A DNA stretch of 64,000 nucleotides from Thermoplasmata archaeon. GTDB lineage: Archaea > Thermoplasmatota > Penumbrarchaeia > JAEHCK01. A program made the translations under genes and the position numbers. Location: positions 6,057 to 70,056 of the forward strand of contig JAEHCK010000002.1 in assembly GCA_020696345.1 (NCBI GenBank), given 5' to 3'. Each line of letters opens with the position of its first letter. Position 1 is the first letter of the stretch. The notes below the pieces were generated by a model. It was not told the DNA's origin. It did no database searches and was given only the letters and a program-made list of their open reading frames with translations. Positions 5,166 through 47,920 of the stretch are shown here, piece by piece.

Positions 5166-8100
5166 AACTATTTAATGTAATATTAGCAATATTGTTGATA
5201 ATGGCATCTATGCTCATTATCCAAACCGATGTCAATGCACTAAGATATTCAATGGACACTGATCTATCGAATGCGGATGCATCATTCATTGGCGAGGATG
5301 CGGATGATAATTCCGGAATTTCGGTAGCGGGTGCAGGTGATGTCAACGGCGATGGCTACGACGATGTACTGATCGGAGCCTACTTAGATGATGATGGAGG
5401 AAACGATGCTGGTCAAACATACCTAATACTCGGAAACGCGACTGGGTGGGCTATGGACATCGACCTGTCCAACGTAGACGCATCATTTATTGGCGAGGAC
5501 GGGGGTGATTGGTCTGGACGTTCGGTGGCGGGTGTGGGCGATGTGAACGGCGATGGCTACGACGACATACTGATCGGTGCTTGGGGTGATGATGACGGAG
5601 GAAGCGGTGCTGGCCAGACATACCTCATATTGGGCAAGGCCTCCGGCTGGGCCATGGACGCAGATTTGGCGAACGCGGATGCATCATTCATTGGCGAGGA
5701 CGCAAGTGATCGTTCCGGATACTCGGTGGCGGGTGCAGATGACGTCAATGGTGATGGGTATGACGATATACTGATCGGAGCCTACTATGATGAGGATGGA
5801 GGAACTTATGCTGGCCAGACATACCTCATACTAGGAAAAGCGACCGGCTGGGTAATGGACACTAGCCTTTCGAACGCAGATGCATCGTTCATTGGCGAGG
5901 ACGCGGACGATCGTTCTGGATACTCGGTGGCGAGTGCCGGTGATGTCAATGGTGATGGGTATGACGATATACTGATCGGAGCCTACTATGATGAGGAGGG
6001 AGGATCCGGTGCCGGGCAGACATACCTAATACTCGGAAATGCGACTGGGTGGGCCATGGACATCGACCTGGCCAATGCAGATGCATCATTCATTGGCGAG
6101 GATGCAAATGGGGAGTCCGGACGGTCGGTGGCGGGTGCGGGTGACGTCAATGGCGACGGTTACGATGATATACTGATTGGGGCCTACTACGATGATGAAG
6201 GAGCAATGCGTGCCGGCCAGACATTCCTCATACTCGGAAAAGCGACTGGTTGGGCCATGGACATAGACCTGGCTAACGCGGATGCTTCATTCATAAGCGA
6301 TATGATAAATGATTATTCCGGATGGTCGGTGGCGGGTGCGGATGACGTTAATGGCGACGGATACGACGACATACTGATCGGTGCCTATGGAGATGATGAT
6401 GGAGGATTATCTGCCGGCCAGACATACCTTATTTTGGGCAAGGCCTCTGGCTGGGCCATGGACAAAAATCTGGGGAACGTTGATGCATCATTCATTGGCG
6501 AGGATGAAAGTGATCGTTCCGGATACTCGGTGGCGGGTGCGGGTGACGTCAATGGCGACGGCTACGACGACATACTGATCGGGGCCTATAAAGATGAGGA
6601 TGGAGGATTCGAGGCTGGGCAGACCTATTTGATATTCCCGGACGCTAACTCCAAACCCAAATCAATAACTTCGGTGAAGGCCTATTCTGATGATTCGTTT
6701 TCAGTTGAGGTATCAAAGGCAGATGTAAATGATACTATCTATATCGAATTGCAGGGAACAGATGGAAACTCCAGTCGATCCGATATCGCCATTGTAAATG
6801 TCAGAAGCAGTGATAGCCATCCCATCGGTTTTAATCTTAGATTATATGAATCCGGTTTAAATACCGGCAAATATCGTGGAAACTTTACAATAAGAAACAG
6901 AACTCACGGCGGTCATCGTTGGATAATGGCATCCATTGGTGAGATAATTACAATTTCCTCAATACAAGATCCTTCCAAGAATGCGACGATTTTACTCGGA
7001 GAACTTGTTCTTTATCCAATCACAGATGATCTCACTGCTCAAGAAGACATCCAATATAACAAACAATATTCAACATATGACATATCCAATATAAATTGGT
7101 TTTTTGAGACCAATGCATCCTGGTTGGAGTGGAATGAAACTTCTCATAACGTCTCGGGCACACCAAACAATGGTGATGTTGGCAGTTACTGGGTGCGAAT
7201 CAATATTTCAATGGGCTCTAGCTTTTCTGATGAACACAATTTCACCTTAGTTGTTAAAAACACACCACCAAATATTACAACTGAGAATATTATAACCACC
7301 GTACAGAACCAAAAATATTCTGTGGATTATAATAGTTCTGACGACGGTCAGGGCATCATTACATGGCACTTGGCGACAAATACATCCTCATGGCTGCAGA
7401 TCAATACAATTAGTGGCAACCTGACCGGGATACCAACGAATGCAGATGTGGGTTCATGTTGGGTGAATGTATCGGTGGACGATGGTAACTGCGGTTGGAA
7501 CTCAACGAATTTTACTCTATTTGTTTCAAATGCGAATGACGCGCCAGAAATTTTCACAAACGATTTACTCACTGCATTCGAGGATGAGGGATATAAGGTC
7601 ACTTATGAAGCAGTAGATAATGATACTGTTTATGGTGATATAATAACCTGGCACATGGATTCGAACACATCATTTCTTGCAATGGATAGCGCCAGTGGCG
7701 TGCTCTCAGGAACACCCACGAACGATGATGTGGGCATCTATTGGGTGAATGTAACCGTCTCTGATTTGATACTAACAAGCGATTCACATAACTTCACAAT
7801 GACGGTAATTAATGTTAATGACCCGCCGTTGATCACCAGCGAACCGATCATTGAAACTATAGCTTTAGATCCATATGAATATCAATTAAATGTAACTGAT
7901 GTGGATATCGGAGATATTCTTACATACTCTCTTGACACCTGCCCGGATAACATGGTGATAAACGAAGACTATGGTTTGATCACCTGGATACCAGATCCGG
8001 AACAAATCGGCGAAAATCCGGTAATAGTTCGGGTCGGTGACGGTAACGAATCGGACACTCAAGAGTTCAATATTAAAGTAACTACGCCTGCTAACTATGC

Positions 8101-13421: not shown

Positions 13422-14057
13422 GTGGACCCGAAGTTCGAACATTCGAAAAATGTGATCAAAGAATGCCTGGACAGATACGATAAAGTAGCAGTAGCATGCA
13501 GCTTTGGCAAAGATAGTATGGTTGTAGTTCATTTAGCCATTAGTATACAACCCGACATACCTATCTTTACAATCATGACGCCGTTAAAACCAAAAGAGAC
13601 TTTCGAGTATAAAGATAAAATGATCGAACTCTGGAACCTTAATATTACCGAGTATCGGGCAAAAAAAGATGTACCCGATGGCCTCTGGAAAACACTGCCA
13701 GACGAATGCTGCAGGATCTTAAAGGTTGAACCAACCCGTGAGGCCGTCAAAGACCTGGATGCTTGGGTCACCGGGCTGCGATGCACCGAGGGAAGGACCA
13801 GAACCGAATACCAGGAATGGGAGCTAAAAGGCGGGCTAATGAAAGTCAACCCGGTCCTGTACTGGACCGAGGCGGATACATGGAGATATATCGCGGTAAA
13901 TCAAATCCCGGTACATCCATGGTATGCTGAAGGGTACAGGTCGATAGGCTGTGCACCGTGTTCTACACCTGGCGGTGAGAACGAGCGTGACGGCCGCTGG
14001 AAGGGCACCAGCAAATGCGGCGGTGAGTGCGGAATACACACTCAGCAATTGAAATGA
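13422..14057 (+). CDS. cysH: APS/PAPS reductase (CysH family, 4Fe-4S APS-reductase-type cysteine set)
   Basis: SFGKDS, ECCRILKVEP, WVTGLR, GYRSIGCAPC, ERDGRW, ECGIH. GTG start. Confidence 0.9.
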   Translation: MDPKFEHSKNVIKECLDRYDKVAVACSFGKDSMVVVHLAISIQPDIPIFTIMTPLKPKETFEYKDKMIELWNLNITEYRAKKDVPDGLWKTLPDECCRILKVEPTREAVKDLDAWVTGLRCTEGRTRTEYQEWELKGGLMKVNPVLYWTEADTWRYIAVNQIPVHPWYAEGYRSIGCAPCSTPGGENERDGRWKGTSKCGGECGIHTQQLK

Positions 14058-14062
14058 GATTC

Positions 14063-14557
14063 AGTTGCTAGTTACTTGTTGCTAGTATTTTATGTTCAAG
14101 GGACTTCCTTAAACCAAATAACATTTTGCTGATTTCTACATGAATAATATTTAATTTTTCATATTCTTTCTTTTTCAAATAATTAAGATCAATTGACAAC
14201 TCTAGATAAACTTCTAATTCATTACATGAGCCAATAGCAATTGATATGAATTGGATAAATTCTCCAATATGATTTTTACCAGAACCTTCTGCAATATTTG
14301 CAATTATTGACGTTGATGCACGTCTCATTTGTGATGTTAATCCATATGTTTCTTCCTTAGGAAAATATCTTGTTATTTGATATATCTTTAGTGTTAATTC
14401 ATATGCTTTATTCCAGACTTTTAAATTTTTGTAACTCTTTAACATATCATCTCACCCCAATAAGTGATATTGAATAAATATCTTAATTAATATAAATAAA
14501 AAAAGTATGTGGTTTAGTGAAGGTAAATTTTTCCAACTCTCTAGCAACTAGCAACTA
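14063..14557. mobile_element. Putative cassette: four-helix-bundle gene bracketed by inverted heptamer arms
   Basis: Left arm agttgct agttact tgttgct agt (14063-14086); right arm ctagcaact agcaacta (14541-14557). The arms are mutually reverse-complementary. Confidence 0.55.
14068..14445 (-). CDS. Four helix bundle protein (23S rRNA IVP / bAvd-like family)
   Basis: YKNLKVWNKAYEL...FPKEETYGLTSQMRRASTSIIANIAEG...F..IAIGSCNELE. Visibly more AT-rich than its neighbours. Confidence 0.95.
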   Translation of the reverse strand: MLKSYKNLKVWNKAYELTLKIYQITRYFPKEETYGLTSQMRRASTSIIANIAEGSGKNHIGEFIQFISIAIGSCNELEVYLELSIDLNYLKKKEYEKLNIIHVEISKMLFGLRKSLEHKILATSN

Positions 14558-15289
14558 TAGATCATTATCAATGATTTCGATCATCTCCGGCATCTTCCCA
14601 ACAGTACCAACGAGATCACCAACAATAACCATGCAACCCTGCACACCCTTTATAGTCTCAGCCTTCTCCAATGCAGCTTGAACAGTTGCCTCAGCATCAT
14701 TTTGTTTCACACGATTCGCAACTGCACTCGCTGCCGCGTCTGACAAGAATGCCGATCTTGAAAATATTATCACTGCCTCGGCGTCACCAAAACTTATCGA
14801 ATGCCCAACCTGACCTGCGCTGGTGCATACCCCCAACGGCAAATTGTCATATCTTATTTTGAACCCCACTTGTTTTGCTACTTGGTTCTTGCCGGCATAT
14901 ATTCCAATATTCACTGACCGCTCTCCCTTGATCGAGACATCACCACCATTATCGGCCATTGCAAGTTTACATTTACACCCTGAGCCGATCATCGCCTCGG
15001 TTGCTACCTCACTGAGACCACCCGCCACTGCAGCCATGGGCCCGACGCCAGCCGCCAACCCGGCATACATCATTTCGCGAACGAACTCCGGTGCATTGAG
15101 ATCAACATCCAACGGTTCCAGTGATGCAAGAAATTCCGTATGCTCGGCAATATATTGCTCGAGTAGGGTCCGGGAATGTAATACAGCTTGTCTGGCCGAG
15201 TCAAATGCACCTGGTCTGTCACTTTTAAGTTTCATGTGTGTCTCTTTCCAGTGAAACTCATTTGAATACAGAACCTGCATCTCACTCAT
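14555..15289 (-). CDS. UPF0280 / ApbE-superfamily protein
   Basis: GVGPMAAVAG, DNGGD, GVCTSAGQVGHSISFGDAEAV, DAAASAVAN. Confidence 0.9.
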   Translation of the reverse strand: MSEMQVLYSNEFHWKETHMKLKSDRPGAFDSARQAVLHSRTLLEQYIAEHTEFLASLEPLDVDLNAPEFVREMMYAGLAAGVGPMAAVAGGLSEVATEAMIGSGCKCKLAMADNGGDVSIKGERSVNIGIYAGKNQVAKQVGFKIRYDNLPLGVCTSAGQVGHSISFGDAEAVIIFSRSAFLSDAAASAVANRVKQNDAEATVQAALEKAETIKGVQGCMVIVGDLVGTVGKMPEMIEIIDNDL

Positions 15290-15305
15290 ATCTCTCACTC
15301 ACATC

Positions 15306-20672: not shown

Positions 20673-20790
20673 AAACATCCTAATAATAGATCGTAACGTC
20701 CAACATCCTAACAATTAATCGAAATGTAGAACATCCCAATAATAAATCGAAATATAGAACATTCTAGTAATTAATCGAAATGTAGAACTT
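20673..20790. repeat. 28-29-nt tandem repeat, 4 units, with an inverted gggatg arm upstream
   Basis: aacatcctaataataagatcgtaacgtcc / aacatcctaacaattaatcgaaatgtag / aacatcccaataataaatcgaaatatag / aacattctagtaattaatcgaaatgtag. Confidence 0.85.
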
Positions 20791-39945: not shown

Positions 39946-40330
39946 AATCACCAATAACCATGTTCCAATAACCAAATAAGCTCCAATCATCAAAAATTCA
40001 ATGAATCAAACAACAATTGATCCGTGTTTGGTTATTCAGTCATTGGTTACTGGTTATTATTTGGTGATTGTTGGTTGGTTATTGGTTATTGCAATTAGCA
40101 ATATTATATCATAAAACAAGATCTCTTCAACAAAAAAAATATAAGGGACTTTCTCGATTGCCCCAACTATTCGTTGGAAAATGATTAATGCAATCACCAA
40201 ATTCCAATGACCAAATAAACACCAATTTTCAACAACTCAATGATCCAAACAATAATCCATCCGTGTTTAAGTAATTCTGTCATTGGTTATTGATTATTAT
40301 TTGGTGATTGTTGGTTGGTTATTGGTCATT
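39946..40330. repeat. Two copies of a ~140-nt palindromic (ACCAATA/TATTGGT)-periodic element
   Basis: 39946-40090 and 40192-40330. Both start aatcaccaa and end ttattatttggtgattgttggttggttattggt(t/c)att. Confidence 0.9.
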
Positions 40331-40376: not shown

Positions 40377-40510
40377 GCTCCCGTAGTGTAGACCGGTCAA
40401 TCATTTTGGCCTCTCGAGGCCTTTCTTTTGCCTGGCAAAAGAAACCCCTGGGAAAGAAAACCAGGAGCCATTGATAGCCAAGGACTCGGGTTCGAATCCC
40501 GACGGGAGCA
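40377..40510 (+). tRNA. tRNA-Glu(CTC) with 59-nt intron at 37/38 (40417-40475)
   Basis: Acceptor GCTCCCG/CGGGAGC; TTGGC-CT-CTC-G|intron|A-GCCAA; T-arm TCGGG-TTCGAAT-CCCGA. Confidence 0.92.
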
Positions 40511-41108
40511 TTATCTCTTTTTTAATAAATTGATAATGCATAGTTAATGTTCTATGCGTAATTGAGATTCGAACCCTAGAAAAAAATATGAATACATTAT
40601 GATTAAATCTTATTTTGTTCTGCCCTAAAAATTCCTTCAATAAGAAATTGGAAATAAATGGAATTTTTACGACTCGGTTACGAATCCCGACGGGAGCATT
40701 ATCTATCTTTTAATGAATTGATAATGCATAGTTAATGTTCTGTGCGTAATTGGGATTCGAACCCTAGAAAAAAATAAGAAGGAATTATAATTGAATCTTA
40801 TTTTTTTCTTGAGCTAAAAATTCCGATGATTTGATATTGAATAGGATTGGAATTTTTACCTCTCGGGTTTGAATCCATTTGTTGTATTAAGATATAATCT
40901 GAAAATGTATTGTCCTCACATATCATTACAATTGTTCGATCGTTTAAACAAAATAATCCTCAGAGAACGAGCAGGCTTATCCCAGAGTTTTGGGATGAGC
41001 GTAAAACTTTTTGCGAGGGGTAAGCCAGCGGAGTTAACTGCCAAAAAGTTTCCGTTCGAATCCCGACGGGAGCATTATCTCTTTTTTAATGAATTGATAA
41101 TGCTTAGT
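40483..41108 (+). repeat. Array of tRNA-Glu 3'-end direct repeats
   Basis: T-arm copies at 40490, 40678, 40867 (truncated, degenerate) and 41054. Units 1 and 2 are similar throughout. Confidence 0.88.
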
Positions 41109-41151: not shown

Positions 41152-41482
41152 ATGGTGGATGGTGAATTAGGTGTGAGGAGAAAGGAAAGAGGGAGGTGGG
41201 AAGAGGAAAGAGGGTTGAAATCTTGTCGTTAAAACCCACTTTCCACTAACGATTTAAATCATAATCGCTGAGAAGTGTCCTCTTCCCACTTTCCTATCAC
41301 CTACTACCTATCACCTACTACCTATCACCTACCACCTACCACCTACCACCTAATTTTAATCTACACATCAACATAATTTTCCTCTCACCTCAAGCGAACG
41401 CAGTGAGCGTACTCTCACCTCAAACCTCACTAAGCAACAATCAAGCACATTTTGCCCTTAAAATTACCAACCATTCACCATT
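41152..41482. repeat. Nested palindromic periodic element
   Basis: Outer arms atggtggatggtgaatt / aattaccaaccattcaccatt. Inside: the 39627-type element, ~8 (acct-atc/act/acc) heptamers and cctctcacctcaagcgaacgcagtgagcgtactc. Confidence 0.8.
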
Positions 41483-46331: not shown

Positions 46332-46453
46332 TAGAATGTGGGAATGTGATGATCTTTTGTAGAATATGGGAATGTGATGGTTTTTTGTAGAATGTGGGAA
46401 TGTGATACTTGTTTGTAGAGCATGGGAATGGGGAATGTGATTAGTTGATGATG
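46332..46453. repeat. 28-nt tandem repeat (tagaatgtgggaatgtgat + variable 9 nt)
   Basis: Three full and one partial unit. gggaatgtgatt(a/g)gttgatgatga is shared with 13017-13040. Confidence 0.85.
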
Positions 46454-46796
46454 ATTATGGGATTGGGTAATGCGATTTATTCCTACTGAGCAGGGGAATG
46501 TGATTTATTATTACTAAGCAGGGGAAAGGAAATGGCCATTTAATTTCCTATTCCCTTATCATCTTAATTTGATCCAGTACCTTATCATTAATATTTATTC
46601 CATTCCCTATTAAAAATCTGAATTTATAAAAAAATGCGATATTTATTGATCGTTTTACATAGCATTTTTTAATTAGTAAGATTTAAATAAATTTAGTGAA
46701 TGTAAGAATGAAAAACAGGGGATTAGAATCTTAGGATAATAGAATAAAATAATATATAAAATTCATAAGTATTCTAATAATTCAACTCAAACGAGT

Positions 46797-47791: not shown

Positions 47792-47920
47792 GGTCGATCG
47801 GTCAGCTAGTCAGTTAGTCAGCTAGTCAGTTAGTCAGCTAGTCAGCTAGTCAGTTAGTCAGTTGGTCGACTAGTCAACTGGCAGACCGATCGACCGATAG
47901 ACCGGCAGACTGGTGGACTA
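47792..47920. repeat. Octamer-periodic palindromic element
   Basis: Eight gtcag(c/t)t(a/g) units, then inverted gacc/gact octamers. ggtcgatcggtc (47792) pairs with gaccgatcgacc (47884). Confidence 0.9.

What the first reader, a model, noticed from the sequence alone, without database searches (positions are those of the whole stretch)
14063..14557. Four-helix-bundle (IVP/bAvd-like) gene bracketed by inverted heptamer arms: the filled form of the element
The left arm (AGTTGCT-like x3) starts 5 nt after the cysH stop and encodes the last codons LATSN* of the bundle gene. The right arm (AGCAACT x2+) contains the UPF0280 stop. The gene is more AT-rich than its flanks and there is no transposase, integrase or RT in the window. 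The family is structurally related to the RNA-binding DGR accessory protein Avd, but its function is unknown. Inference: it binds or mobilises the periodic hairpins.
Basis: partly seen in the sequence, partly recalled or inferred. Interest (0 to 1): 0.8.

Follow-up and report, generated by a model that had tools for sequence, protein, structure and literature searches.

The report
Archaeal heptamer-armed four-helix-bundle gene cassette
A small gene of the family first seen inside ribosomal-RNA "intervening sequences" sits here in an archaeon between two ordinary genes, bracketed by mirror-image runs of a 7-base repeat; most sampled relatives of this gene in bacteria and archaea are packaged the same way, which points to a little-described selfish DNA cassette.

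Summary
Window 14068-14445 (-) encodes a 125-aa PF05635/TIGR02436 four-helix-bundle protein (E 9e-41). It lies in an AT-rich insert of about 495 bp.

The local arms are short and only borderline significant alone. The pattern across the family is strong:
- In this genome, 10 of 20 such genes have inverted flanks, against 9 of 400 control ORFs.
- Among 76 relatives from bacteria and archaea, 61 exceed the 95th percentile of a swapped-flank control.
- Of those 76, 62 show 7/14-nt periodicity next to the start codon.

Arms travel with the gene: paralogues at unrelated sites share them, and heptamer similarity tracks protein identity. Gene-less hairpins built from the same heptamer are dispersed in the genome.

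My reading is a free-standing version of the ORF-bearing 23S rRNA intervening sequence, here in an archaeon with its own internal promoter. It is probably a selfish cassette whose protein acts on the arms. Binding and mobilisation are untested.

It is not a DGR Avd: the genome has one RT, and it is elsewhere. The scan has noted this cassette many times on other, bacterial DNA. I found no paper describing it outside rRNA.

The parts
14063..14086 (.). Arm downstream of the gene (3' arm in gene orientation): AGTTGCT AGTTACT TGTTGCT AGT. It starts 5 nt after the cysH stop and overlaps the last six codons (LATSN*) of the bundle gene.
   Evidence: (I4, D11)
14068..14445 (-). Gene for a 125-aa four-helix-bundle protein (23S_rRNA_IVP / TIGR02436). 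Invariant among 10 paralogues: Q39, S46, N50, E53, G54, A70, S73, E76.
   Evidence: (2gsc E 8e-19, 2rld E 9.5e-13; both entries hold 5 chains)
14451..14458 (-). Shine-Dalgarno-like GGGGTGAG, 5 nt upstream of the ATG (inferred from sequence).
   Evidence: inference
14483..14521 (-). A/T-rich TATA-like stretch (TTTATTTATATTAATTAAG) preceded by TTCACTAAACCAC. Paralogues carry a similar TTCA..CCCC..TATA box between the arm and the start codon. Inferred to be an internal archaeal promoter.
   Evidence: 5 of 33 genome hits of the loose motif lie just upstream of bundle genes; inference
14534..14557 (.). Arm upstream of the gene (5' arm in gene orientation). Read on the minus strand: AGTTGCT AGTTGCT AG, then a degenerate unit AGAGAGT. 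It holds the TAG stop of UPF0280 (14555-14557).
   Evidence: TRF 14541-14557, period 7, 2.4 copies
13422..14057 (+). Left neighbour: phosphoadenylyl-sulfate reductase (cysH-like). Not part of the cassette; marks its outer limit.
   Evidence: NF002537, 193 bits, cut-off 154
14555..15298 (-). Right neighbour: UPF0280-type protein (PRK04334 models, below the equivalog cut-offs). It is the last gene of a run on the minus strand, same direction as the bundle gene. I did not family-search the two ORFs upstream of it; their naming as sulfopyruvate decarboxylase and cysteate synthase rests on recall.

Best explanation
This is a free-standing copy of the kind of element known as the ORF-bearing intervening sequence (IVS) of bacterial 23S rRNA. 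It is a cassette of about 495 bp made of a four-helix-bundle (PF05635) gene with its own promoter, enclosed by two inverted arrays of a 7-base repeat. Here it sits at the 3' ends of two convergent genes in a Thermoplasmatota-type archaeon.

Shown:
- The gene plus its arms is one heritable unit.
- That unit recurs at unrelated sites in this genome and around most sampled relatives in both domains.
- Its arms diverge together with the protein.
- The protein is under purifying selection.
- Gene-less hairpins of the same heptamer type are dispersed in genomes that are rich in these genes.

Inferred:
- The cassette is a selfish, occasionally mobile module, and the arms are its cis-acting ends.
- The ring-forming bundle protein (solved relatives are deposited as five chains) acts in trans on the repeat arrays, most simply by binding one repeat per subunit; arms have a median of about 4 repeats.
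- Cutting and joining are done by unidentified, probably host, enzymes.
- Because the archaeal copies carry promoter-like sequence between the arm and the start codon, the arms more likely work as DNA, or in read-through RNA from UPF0280, than as the leader of the gene's own mRNA.
For: Own genome:
- 22 PF05635 matches.
- Printed flanks show locus-specific inverted periodic arms at most of them.
- 10 of 20 loci score 27 or more, against 9 of 400 small-ORF controls (Fisher p 3e-10).

Relatives:
- By eye, most of 18 loci from G001, G002, G003 and G005 have arms.

Cross-domain sample (the best 80 of 476 relatives; 76 have full flanks):
- 61 of 76 exceed the 95th and 26 of 76 the 99th percentile of the swapped-flank control.
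- The best lag is 7 or 14 in 62 of 76 upstream and 55 of 76 downstream flanks, against 10 of 76 distal controls.
- TRF finds period-7 arrays in 60 and 59 of 76 flanks, with median 4.2 and 4.3 copies.

Arms move and evolve with the gene:
- The paralogues C44:19253 and C68:87231 share 88% identity from about 125 nt upstream to about 37 nt downstream of the ORF, and nothing outside that span.
- Heptamer distance falls with protein identity: 0.83 of 7 at 80% identity or more, against about 3.4 below 60% (Mantel, 0 of 999 permutations).
- dN/dS is 0.26 and 0.14 in the two pairs where dS is measurable.

Gene-less forms and genome-wide link:
- 112 AGTTGCT-type arrays in the genome. 14 convergent pairs, 0 divergent, and one pair holds the gene.
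- 82 short-loop hairpins of 27/28-nt period, whose units also flank the bundle genes on C26, C21, C114 and C158.
- Period-7/14 arrays per 100 kb: 18-34 in the three genomes with 6-22 bundle genes, against 0-10 in nine genomes with none.

This locus:
- Contigs of another sample (X3) carry the same junctions with 14 extra bases (two heptamers) in one arm and about 19 in the other.

Precedent in print:
- The Coxiella IVS has a 28-bp terminal stem, an S23p ORF in the loop, and tandem heptamers of variable number (PMC4990558, passages read).
Against: - No test of binding or movement was possible.
- No strict empty site was found, and no target-site duplication was seen at this locus.
- The local arms are short: 2-3 heptamers, with a score at the 99th percentile of controls and not beyond it.
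- Ten of 20 own-genome loci fall below the threshold. Several of those are truncated genes or lie at contig ends.
- The 76 loci are relatives of this protein's own subfamily, not a random sample of PF05635.
- Kinship inflates every p-value.
- The AGNNNYN skeleton seen in that sample does not hold for other period-7 hairpins of this genome; 12 of 14 fit neither orientation.
- Gene-less AGTTGCT hairpins show no homology to this cassette's interior and carry other inserts. Hairpins may therefore be landing pads rather than derivatives.
- An earlier claim in this scan that the protein reads its heptamer base by base partly fell on later checking.
Confidence: 0.6

Rival explanations
1. The arms are purely an RNA feature. 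The 5' and 3' arms pair in the transcript into a panhandle that controls processing, stability or translation of the bundle-gene mRNA, as RNase III excises the IVS from 23S rRNA. They have no role in mobility.
For: - The minimum-free-energy fold of the 521-nt sense RNA closes the whole element with a 15-bp terminal stem (z -2.41).
- In bacterial relatives the arms abut the start and stop codons: median 12 and 2 nt.
- There is an IVS precedent.
- UPF0280 runs in the same direction, so read-through RNA would hold both arms.
Against: - In archaeal copies the upstream arm lies a median of 87 nt from the start, with promoter-like sequence in between. The gene's own transcript probably lacks the 5' arm.
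- Mismatches between arms show no excess of types that give G-U in the sense RNA: 56 against 78, and 201 of 335 are transversions.
- Gene-less hairpins are numerous.
- No Rfam family matches.
- From general knowledge, most archaea lack RNase III.
Confidence: 0.15
2. The periodic hairpins come first and are independent elements or structural intergenic DNA. The bundle gene is one of several cargoes that insert into hairpin centres, so the arms are target DNA rather than part of the cassette.
For: - Gene-less hairpins far outnumber gene-bearing ones.
- The same AGTTGCT hairpin type holds a 19-nt loop, an unrelated 182-nt dispersed repeat, or this gene.
- Other heptamer hairpins are nested inside loops of the 28-nt family (C85, C129).
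- IVSs sit at the tips of rRNA helices.
Against: - Arms are co-inherited with the gene across genomes and between paralogous sites.
- The layout holds in phyla whose genomes were not shown to have free hairpins.
- The flanks outside the arms here are ordinary gene ends.
Confidence: 0.15
3. The hairpins are moved by IS200/IS605-type Y1 transposases (REP/RAYT-like) acting in trans, and the bundle gene is a passenger.
For: The genome has 15 Y1_Tnp matches. Y1 enzymes act on DNA hairpins (general knowledge).
Against: - None of the 9 Y1 genes with usable flanks has periodic inverted arms; scores are 18-29 with non-periodic matches.
- None is on the window's contig.
- The arm association follows PF05635 across phyla.
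Confidence: 0.05
4. The protein is the Avd accessory subunit of a diversity-generating retroelement.
For: Weak similarity to the bAvd and Avd models (31.4 bits, cut-off 40; 33.2 bits, cut-off 80).
Against: - Both Avd models score below their cut-offs.
- The genome has a single RVT_1 match, on contig C220, which holds none of the 22 bundle genes.
- No template/variable repeat pair is evident in the repeat scan of 13950-14700.
Confidence: 0.01
5. The arms are a chance match in AT-rich intergenic DNA, or a by-product of polymerase slippage.
For: The local score (28) is only at the 99th percentile of controls. Heptamer repeats are reported as the commonest long simple repeats in prokaryotes (passage in PMC4679880).
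Against: Family-wide statistics. Slippage does not explain matched inverted arrays on both sides of one gene family.
Confidence: 0.02

Closest known systems
ORF-bearing intervening sequences (IVS) of bacterial 23S rRNA (Coxiella burnetii helix 45, Leptospira; S23p ORF). PMC4990558, passages read; Ralph and McClelland 1993 only as cited there.
   Same: Same protein family in the loop, terminal inverted repeats that close the element, tandem heptamers of variable copy number, a size of about 430-500 nt, AT-rich, and long suspected of being a selfish or mobile element.
   Different: This copy is not in an rRNA gene. It is in an archaeon and carries promoter- and SD-like sequence inside the arms. 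The gene is under purifying selection in paralogue pairs, whereas the Coxiella ORF is reported as decaying and untranslated. RNase III excision is not applicable or not testable here.
REP/REPIN-RAYT systems
   Same: One protein gene flanked by inverted copies of a short repeat, many gene-less hairpin doublets of the same repeat dispersed in the genome, and repeat type that tracks the protein lineage.
   Different: The protein is a small helical bundle with no recognisable nuclease or transposase fold, not a Y1 transposase. The arms are tandem arrays of 7-nt (or 27/28-nt) units rather than single palindromes. The Y1 genes of this genome lack such arms.
DGR accessory protein Avd (bAvd; PF22296, NF033474)
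   Same: Homologous four-helix-bundle fold. Solved relatives of this protein (2gsc, 2rld) are deposited as five chains. PMC10053308 states the homology between Avd and PF05635.
   Different: No reverse transcriptase and no template/variable repeats. Scores are below both Avd cut-offs.
Intergenic heptamer repeats of bacteria (TAACTGA repeats of marine Beggiatoaceae, PMC4679880, passages read; cyanobacterial STRR heptamers, recalled)
   Same: Tandem 7-nt units in intergenic DNA close to start codons, 2-6 copies, and a patchy phylogenetic distribution.
   Different: Those are described as direct repeats upstream of many genes, with one inverted case, and no link to a four-helix-bundle gene is stated. 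Here the arrays come as inverted pairs round one gene family.

Membership tests
PF05635 / TIGR02436 four-helix-bundle protein (23S rRNA IVS protein, S23p) | Sequence match above the curated cut-offs | tested here: met
   PF05635 138.8 bits (cut-off 33.8), residues 6-110 on profile positions 1-105 of 106. TIGR02436 128.9 bits (cut-off 24).
PF05635 / TIGR02436 four-helix-bundle protein (23S rRNA IVS protein, S23p) | Four-helix-bundle fold that forms a homopentameric ring | not tested
   Only sequence similarity to solved relatives: 2gsc (E 8e-19) and 2rld (E 9.5e-13), each with 5 chains. The pentamer is stated in PMC4990558, citing Lin 2006. No structure or complex was predicted here.
23S rRNA intervening sequence (IVS) element | Inserted at the tip of a 23S rRNA helix | tested here: not met
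   It lies between a cysH-like and a UPF0280 gene. Rfam finds no RNA family in 13900-14700.
23S rRNA intervening sequence (IVS) element | Terminal inverted repeats that close the element, with the S23p ORF in the loop | tested here: met
   Arms at 14063-14086 and 14534-14557. The MFE fold pairs them.
23S rRNA intervening sequence (IVS) element | Tandem heptamers in the stem region, variable in number between strains | tested here: met
   AGTTGCT units. Contigs of run X3 carry 14 extra bases in the right arm, from single low-depth contigs.
23S rRNA intervening sequence (IVS) element | Excised from the RNA by RNase III | not testable with these tools
   No RNA run holds the stretch.
DGR (Avd accessory protein) | Adjacent reverse transcriptase and a template/variable repeat pair | tested here: not met
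   The single RVT_1 match in the genome is on C220, and no bundle gene is there.
DGR (Avd accessory protein) | Match to Avd models above their cut-offs | tested here: not met
   NF033474 33.2 bits (cut-off 80). PF22296 31.4 bits (cut-off 40).
REP/REPIN-RAYT | The flanked gene encodes a Y1 (HUH) transposase | tested here: not met
   The protein matches only PF05635 and bAvd. Y1 genes exist elsewhere in the genome without such arms.
REP/REPIN-RAYT | Dispersed gene-less inverted doublets of the same repeat | tested here: met
   13 other convergent AGTTGCT pairs and 112 arrays in the genome.
TIR transposon / MITE | Target-site duplication, and a transposase in the autonomous copy | tested here: not met
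   The bases outside the arms (GATTC / ATAGA) are not a duplication. No transposase domain is in the cassette.

The most novel reading that the evidence does not exclude
PF05635 proteins are the dedicated trans-acting partners of a class of transposase-less hairpin elements found in both Bacteria and Archaea. The rRNA intervening sequences are the special case that landed in rRNA. Much of the unexplained excess of heptamer (and derived 14-, 27- and 28-nt) tandem repeats in prokaryotic genomes is the footprint of these elements and their gene-less derivatives.
Probability: 0.3. Interest if true: 0.85.

Novelty: new variant of a known kind. Interest (0 to 1): 0.68.

Why it matters
PF05635/TIGR02436 is a very large family with solved structures and no known function outside DGRs. 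The origin and mobility of rRNA intervening sequences have been open since about 1990. Heptamer repeats are reported as the commonest long simple repeats in prokaryotes, without an explanation.

A fixed gene-in-heptamer-hairpin module links all three and gives a direct experiment: does the protein bind its own arms?

This archaeal genome adds several points:
- The module crosses the domain boundary. The best hits are archaeal at 65-68% identity, followed by bacterial hits at 43-62%.
- It has acquired an internal promoter, which argues against a role of the arms only in the mRNA leader.
- It coexists with large families of gene-less hairpins, including higher-order arrays of 27/28 nt.

Tried and rejected
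- **Empty site.** Two relatives with UPF0280 (G001 at 62% identity, G005 at 46%) have other neighbours and no cysH, so no strict empty junction exists in them. G006 also matched but was not inspected.
- **Metagenome scan with UPF0280.** 160 pattern matches, none confirmed.
- **Metagenome scan with the bundle protein.** 20 loci, the best at only 52% identity, so no near-identical copy at another site. I did not analyse these 20 loci further.
- **First try of the genome-contig scan.** The 10-sequence alignment failed for lack of a conserved stretch. It was repeated with a 4-sequence alignment.
- **RNA evidence.** No RNA holder is listed.
- **A joint in one X3 contig.** It skips 14035-14657, with only 24 letters on the shorter side at 85% likeness, and would delete both gene ends. 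I do not read it as an empty site.
- **Rfam.** No match.
- **G-U wobble asymmetry as a sign of RNA-level selection.** Not found. Alignment register in periodic arms is ambiguous, so this is weak evidence.
- **A universal AGNNNYN heptamer skeleton.** It holds in the sampled subfamily but not for this genome's other period-7 hairpins.
- **Inverted-pair density as a cross-genome measure.** It was inflated in G019 by AT-rich low-complexity arrays, so I rely on the period-7/14 counts.
- **Gene-less AGTTGCT hairpins nested in outer inverted arrays.** 0 of 14 exceed the control; their outer CAGGGGT-type runs are in direct orientation.
- **Paper searches.** Searches found no paper that describes PF05635 genes outside rRNA with inverted heptamer arms. 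One search was mostly noise. Supplements were not consulted.

Full report
**1. What is at the coordinates**

The sequence and ORF list show three genes.
- A cysH-like gene lies at 13422-14057 (+). It matches PAPS_reduct at E 5.9e-42 and NF002537 above its cut-off.
- A 125-aa ORF lies at 14068-14445 (-).
- A UPF0280-type ORF lies at 14555-15298 (-). It matches the PRK04334 models below their equivalog cut-offs.

The 125-aa protein is a clear member of PF05635 (E 9.4e-41) and TIGR02436 (E 8.9e-38). It resembles two solved proteins of unknown function, 2gsc and 2rld, each deposited with five chains. It scores below the cut-offs of both Avd models.

- AGTTGCT AGTTACT TGTTGCT AGT at 14063-14086 starts five bases after the cysH stop and encodes the last codons of the gene.
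- CTAGCAACTAGCAACTA at 14541-14557 contains the UPF0280 stop.
- They form a 17-nt inverted repeat, 88% complementary.
- The 14-mer of two heptamers, with up to 2 mismatches, occurs only in these arms: 3 hits against 0.28 expected.

The insert has GC 0.26-0.29 against 0.42-0.55 beside it. Folded as RNA, the whole element is closed by a 15-bp terminal stem.

**2. The same layout in this genome**

The window is contig C68 of a 4.97-Mb, 272-contig assembly with 22 PF05635 matches. Two lie at contig ends and were left out, leaving 20.

I printed 160-nt flanks of these 20. Most are bracketed by inverted runs of short tandem units. The unit sequence differs from locus to locus: AGTTGYY, GGAGTC-type 8-mers, GATGTGG, GAGTGTGT, and units of 27 and 28 nt.

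I scored the left flank against the reverse complement of the right flank.
- 12 of 20 reach the 99th percentile of 300 random segments.
- With identical settings, 10 of 20 score 27 or more against 9 of 400 small-ORF gene proxies (Fisher p 3e-10).
- This locus scores 28. It is borderline on its own.

**3. Relatives and other phyla**

Among 40 related genomes, PF05635 was found in four.
- Two are of the same order (17 and 6 matches), one is of the same family (3), and one is of the same class (2).
- It was not found in the other 36.
- By eye, most of 18 loci printed from these four genomes show locus-specific periodic inverted arms.

A scan of one genome per species with a 4-sequence alignment found 476 relatives. 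The best 80 were kept.
- The top hits are a Methanomassiliicoccales MAG (68% identity) and a Thermoplasmata MAG (65%).
- The rest are mostly bacteria of many phyla at 43-62% identity.

Of the 76 loci with full flanks:
- 61 exceed the 95th and 26 the 99th percentile of a control that pairs each left flank with another locus's right flank. Only 4 do so in direct orientation.
- The arms are visibly tandem heptamers that abut the start and stop codons.
- The best autocorrelation lag is 7 or 14 in 62 of 76 upstream and 55 of 76 downstream flanks, against 10 of 76 distal controls.
- TRF calls period-7 arrays in 60 and 59 of 76 flanks, with median 4.2 and 4.3 copies.

In 52 well-formed upstream arrays the heptamer has a shared skeleton AGNNNYN (A in 44, G in 48, pyrimidine in 50 of 52). 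Information content is 4.64 bits against 3.27 +/- 0.10 for shuffled heptamers. Because the arms are inverted, this means the AG-type array is always the 5' arm on either strand.

The skeleton is a trait of this subfamily only. Twelve of 14 other period-7 hairpins in this genome fit neither orientation.

These 76 loci are relatives of this protein, not a random sample of the family. Two archaeal rows duplicate G002 loci.

**4. The arms belong to the gene**

- The paralogues on C44 and at the far end of C68 are 88% identical from about 125 nt upstream to about 37 nt downstream of the ORF. They are unrelated outside that span.
- Across 52 loci, heptamer distance tracks protein identity: 0.83 of 7 at 80% identity or more, 1.21 at 70-80%, and about 3.4 below 60%. 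None of 999 Mantel permutations was as strong. This shows co-inheritance, not recognition.
- dN/dS is 0.26 and 0.14 in the two paralogue pairs with measurable dS. The protein is therefore maintained.

**5. Gene-less hairpins**

- TRF finds 5965 rows in the genome. Period 7 is the commonest (931 rows), with secondary peaks at 27 and 28.
- Of 4607 merged arrays, 283 have an inverted partner within 3 kb, most often 25-100 nt away.
- Eighty-two short-loop hairpins have a period of 27 or 28 nt. Units of the same kinds flank the bundle genes on C26, C21, C114 and C158.
- AGTTGCT-type arrays number 112. That is 227 raw hits, against 12-50 for permuted heptamers that are not rotations.
- They form 14 convergent and 0 divergent pairs. 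Only this locus holds a bundle gene.

These gene-less AGTTGCT hairpins are not simple deletion products of this cassette.
- They sit in a composite repeat with CAGGGGT-type runs outside.
- Three of them carry an unrelated 182-nt dispersed repeat.
- Only the C210 paralogue shares an 8-mer next to the arm with them.

I sampled 40-200 kb from each of 13 related genomes.
- Period-7/14 arrays run at 18-34 per 100 kb in the three genomes with 6-22 bundle genes.
- They run at 4 and 11 per 100 kb in the two genomes with 2-3 bundle genes.
- They run at 0-10 per 100 kb in nine genomes without any.
- The rich genomes are close kin, so this is suggestive only.

**6. DNA or RNA**

- In bacterial relatives the arms lie a median of 12 nt from the start and 2 nt from the stop.
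- In archaeal copies the figures are 87 and 36.5 nt (Mann-Whitney p about 1e-4, kin not independent).
- In that space the archaeal copies carry a TTCA..CCCC box, an A/T-rich TATA-like stretch and an SD-like GGTGA.
- The gene's own transcript therefore probably starts inside the arm.
- Mismatches between arms show no excess of the types that give G-U pairs in the sense RNA: 56 against 78, with 201 of 335 transversions.

Both points lean toward a DNA-level role. Read-through from UPF0280 would still give an RNA with both arms. No RNA data exist for this stretch.

**7. History of this locus**

- G001 (UPF0280 62% identical) and G005 (46%) have other convergent neighbours and no bundle gene there.
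- Metagenome scans gave no closer relative.
- Contigs of run X3, from a cold-seep metagenome by its record, bridge cysH to the arm and the gene end, and the other arm to UPF0280. They carry 14 extra bases (two heptamers) in the right arm and about 19 at the left arm.
- These are single contigs at depth about 2.6. The result is a hint of heptamer copy-number change, as reported for Coxiella strains.

**8. Rivals**

- A DGR is excluded. The genome has one RT, on another contig.
- No tyrosine recombinase lies on this contig.
- Fifteen Y1 transposase matches exist in the genome, but 0 of 9 testable ones have periodic arms.
- The RNA-only and hairpin-first readings are not excluded. They are scored in the rival list.

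**9. What is in print and in this scan**

- PMC4990558 (passages read) describes the Coxiella IVS: a 28-bp terminal stem, the S23p ORF in the loop, RNase III excision, and variable tandem heptamers. It cites the old idea that the ORF serves mobility.
- PMC10053308 (passages read) notes the homology between Avd and PF05635.
- PMC4679880 (passages read) describes direct TAACTGA heptamers without this gene.
- Six full-text searches found nothing on armed PF05635 genes outside rRNA.
- The scan's own notes hold 612 findings with these words in at least 545 genomes. All those shown are bacterial, and they reach the same reading. One note's stronger claim, that the protein reads the heptamer base by base, partly fell on later checking, and I do not make it.
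- Earlier notes call this organism a marine-sediment Thermoplasmatota archaeon. The best protein hits and the record of run X1 agree with that.

**10. Verdict**

The element is best described as a free-standing, archaeal variant of the ORF-bearing rRNA intervening sequence. It is probably a selfish cassette whose protein works on its repeat arms. The mechanism is inferred, not shown.

Noticed in passing
own genome contigs C74:1413-1892, C129:63779-64015, C264:6778-7011, C257:41694-41981 (loci L013-L016); also L030 in G001: Four copies of a 5'-truncated bundle gene, with GAGTGTGT-type arms, follow a fragment of a tyrosine-recombinase N-terminal SAM-like domain (PF13495, E 5e-5, below its cut-off). 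On C74 the fragment and the bundle remnant are fused into one 159-aa ORF. C74 and C129 share the upstream fragment at 91% identity. It looks like a cassette that landed in an integrase gene of another multi-copy element and was then copied along with it.
   Followed up: partly
own genome, e.g. C3:4474-4715, C5:11190-11508, C25:8885-9202; in the window 20674-20788 and 46332-46526: 82 hairpins with 27- or 28-nt periodic arms and short loops. Many of the 28-nt ones share a loop sequence (GGATGCATAAATGA-type). The 28-nt unit contains GGATGTT/AGATGTC-like heptamers, so it may be a higher-order repeat built from heptamers.
   Followed up: partly
own genome C85:13437-13655, C129:81170-81500, C190:7905-8052: Other heptamer hairpins (TAGGTNA, GAGTGTGT) are nested in the loops of larger periodic hairpins. 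This suggests insertion at hairpin centres.
   Followed up: no
own genome C170:29464-29645, C25:16318-16499, C39:38975-39135 and about 35 further places: A dispersed repeat of about 180 nt (GGGGTTAGAATTCTGATAATAAC...) sits inside three AGTTGCT hairpins and occurs whole or in part on many contigs.
   Followed up: partly
window 40028-40218, 41175-41289, 41293-41352, 47801-47876: Further periodic arrays in the window. TTGGTTA x9 has an inverted partner 99 nt on. GAGGAAA x5.6 has a partner 64 nt on. CCTACCA x8.6 and GTCAGCTA x9.5 were seen only as arrays. The window also has a 188-nt tandem duplication at 40483-40824 that appears to include the 3' end of a tRNA-like sequence.
   Followed up: no
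upstream of bundle genes on C6, C21, C114, C158, C210 and, in weaker form, window 14509-14521: A TTCA(N2-6)CCYC box lies 2-14 nt before a TATA-like box. A loose pattern hits 33 places in the genome, 5 of them just upstream of bundle genes. It may be a general promoter feature of this archaeon or an operator of the cassette.
   Followed up: partly
L024 1902-2016 (G001, downstream of UPF0280): The relative without the cassette has a small GC-rich hairpin (AAACCGCTGG...CCAGCGGTTT) in the same intergenic position.
   Followed up: no
window 5252-6611: A tandem array of 201/402-nt units (3.4-6.7 copies, 77-78% matches) whose consensus looks like coding repeats rich in Asp and Gly (read by eye from the TRF consensus).
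   Followed up: no
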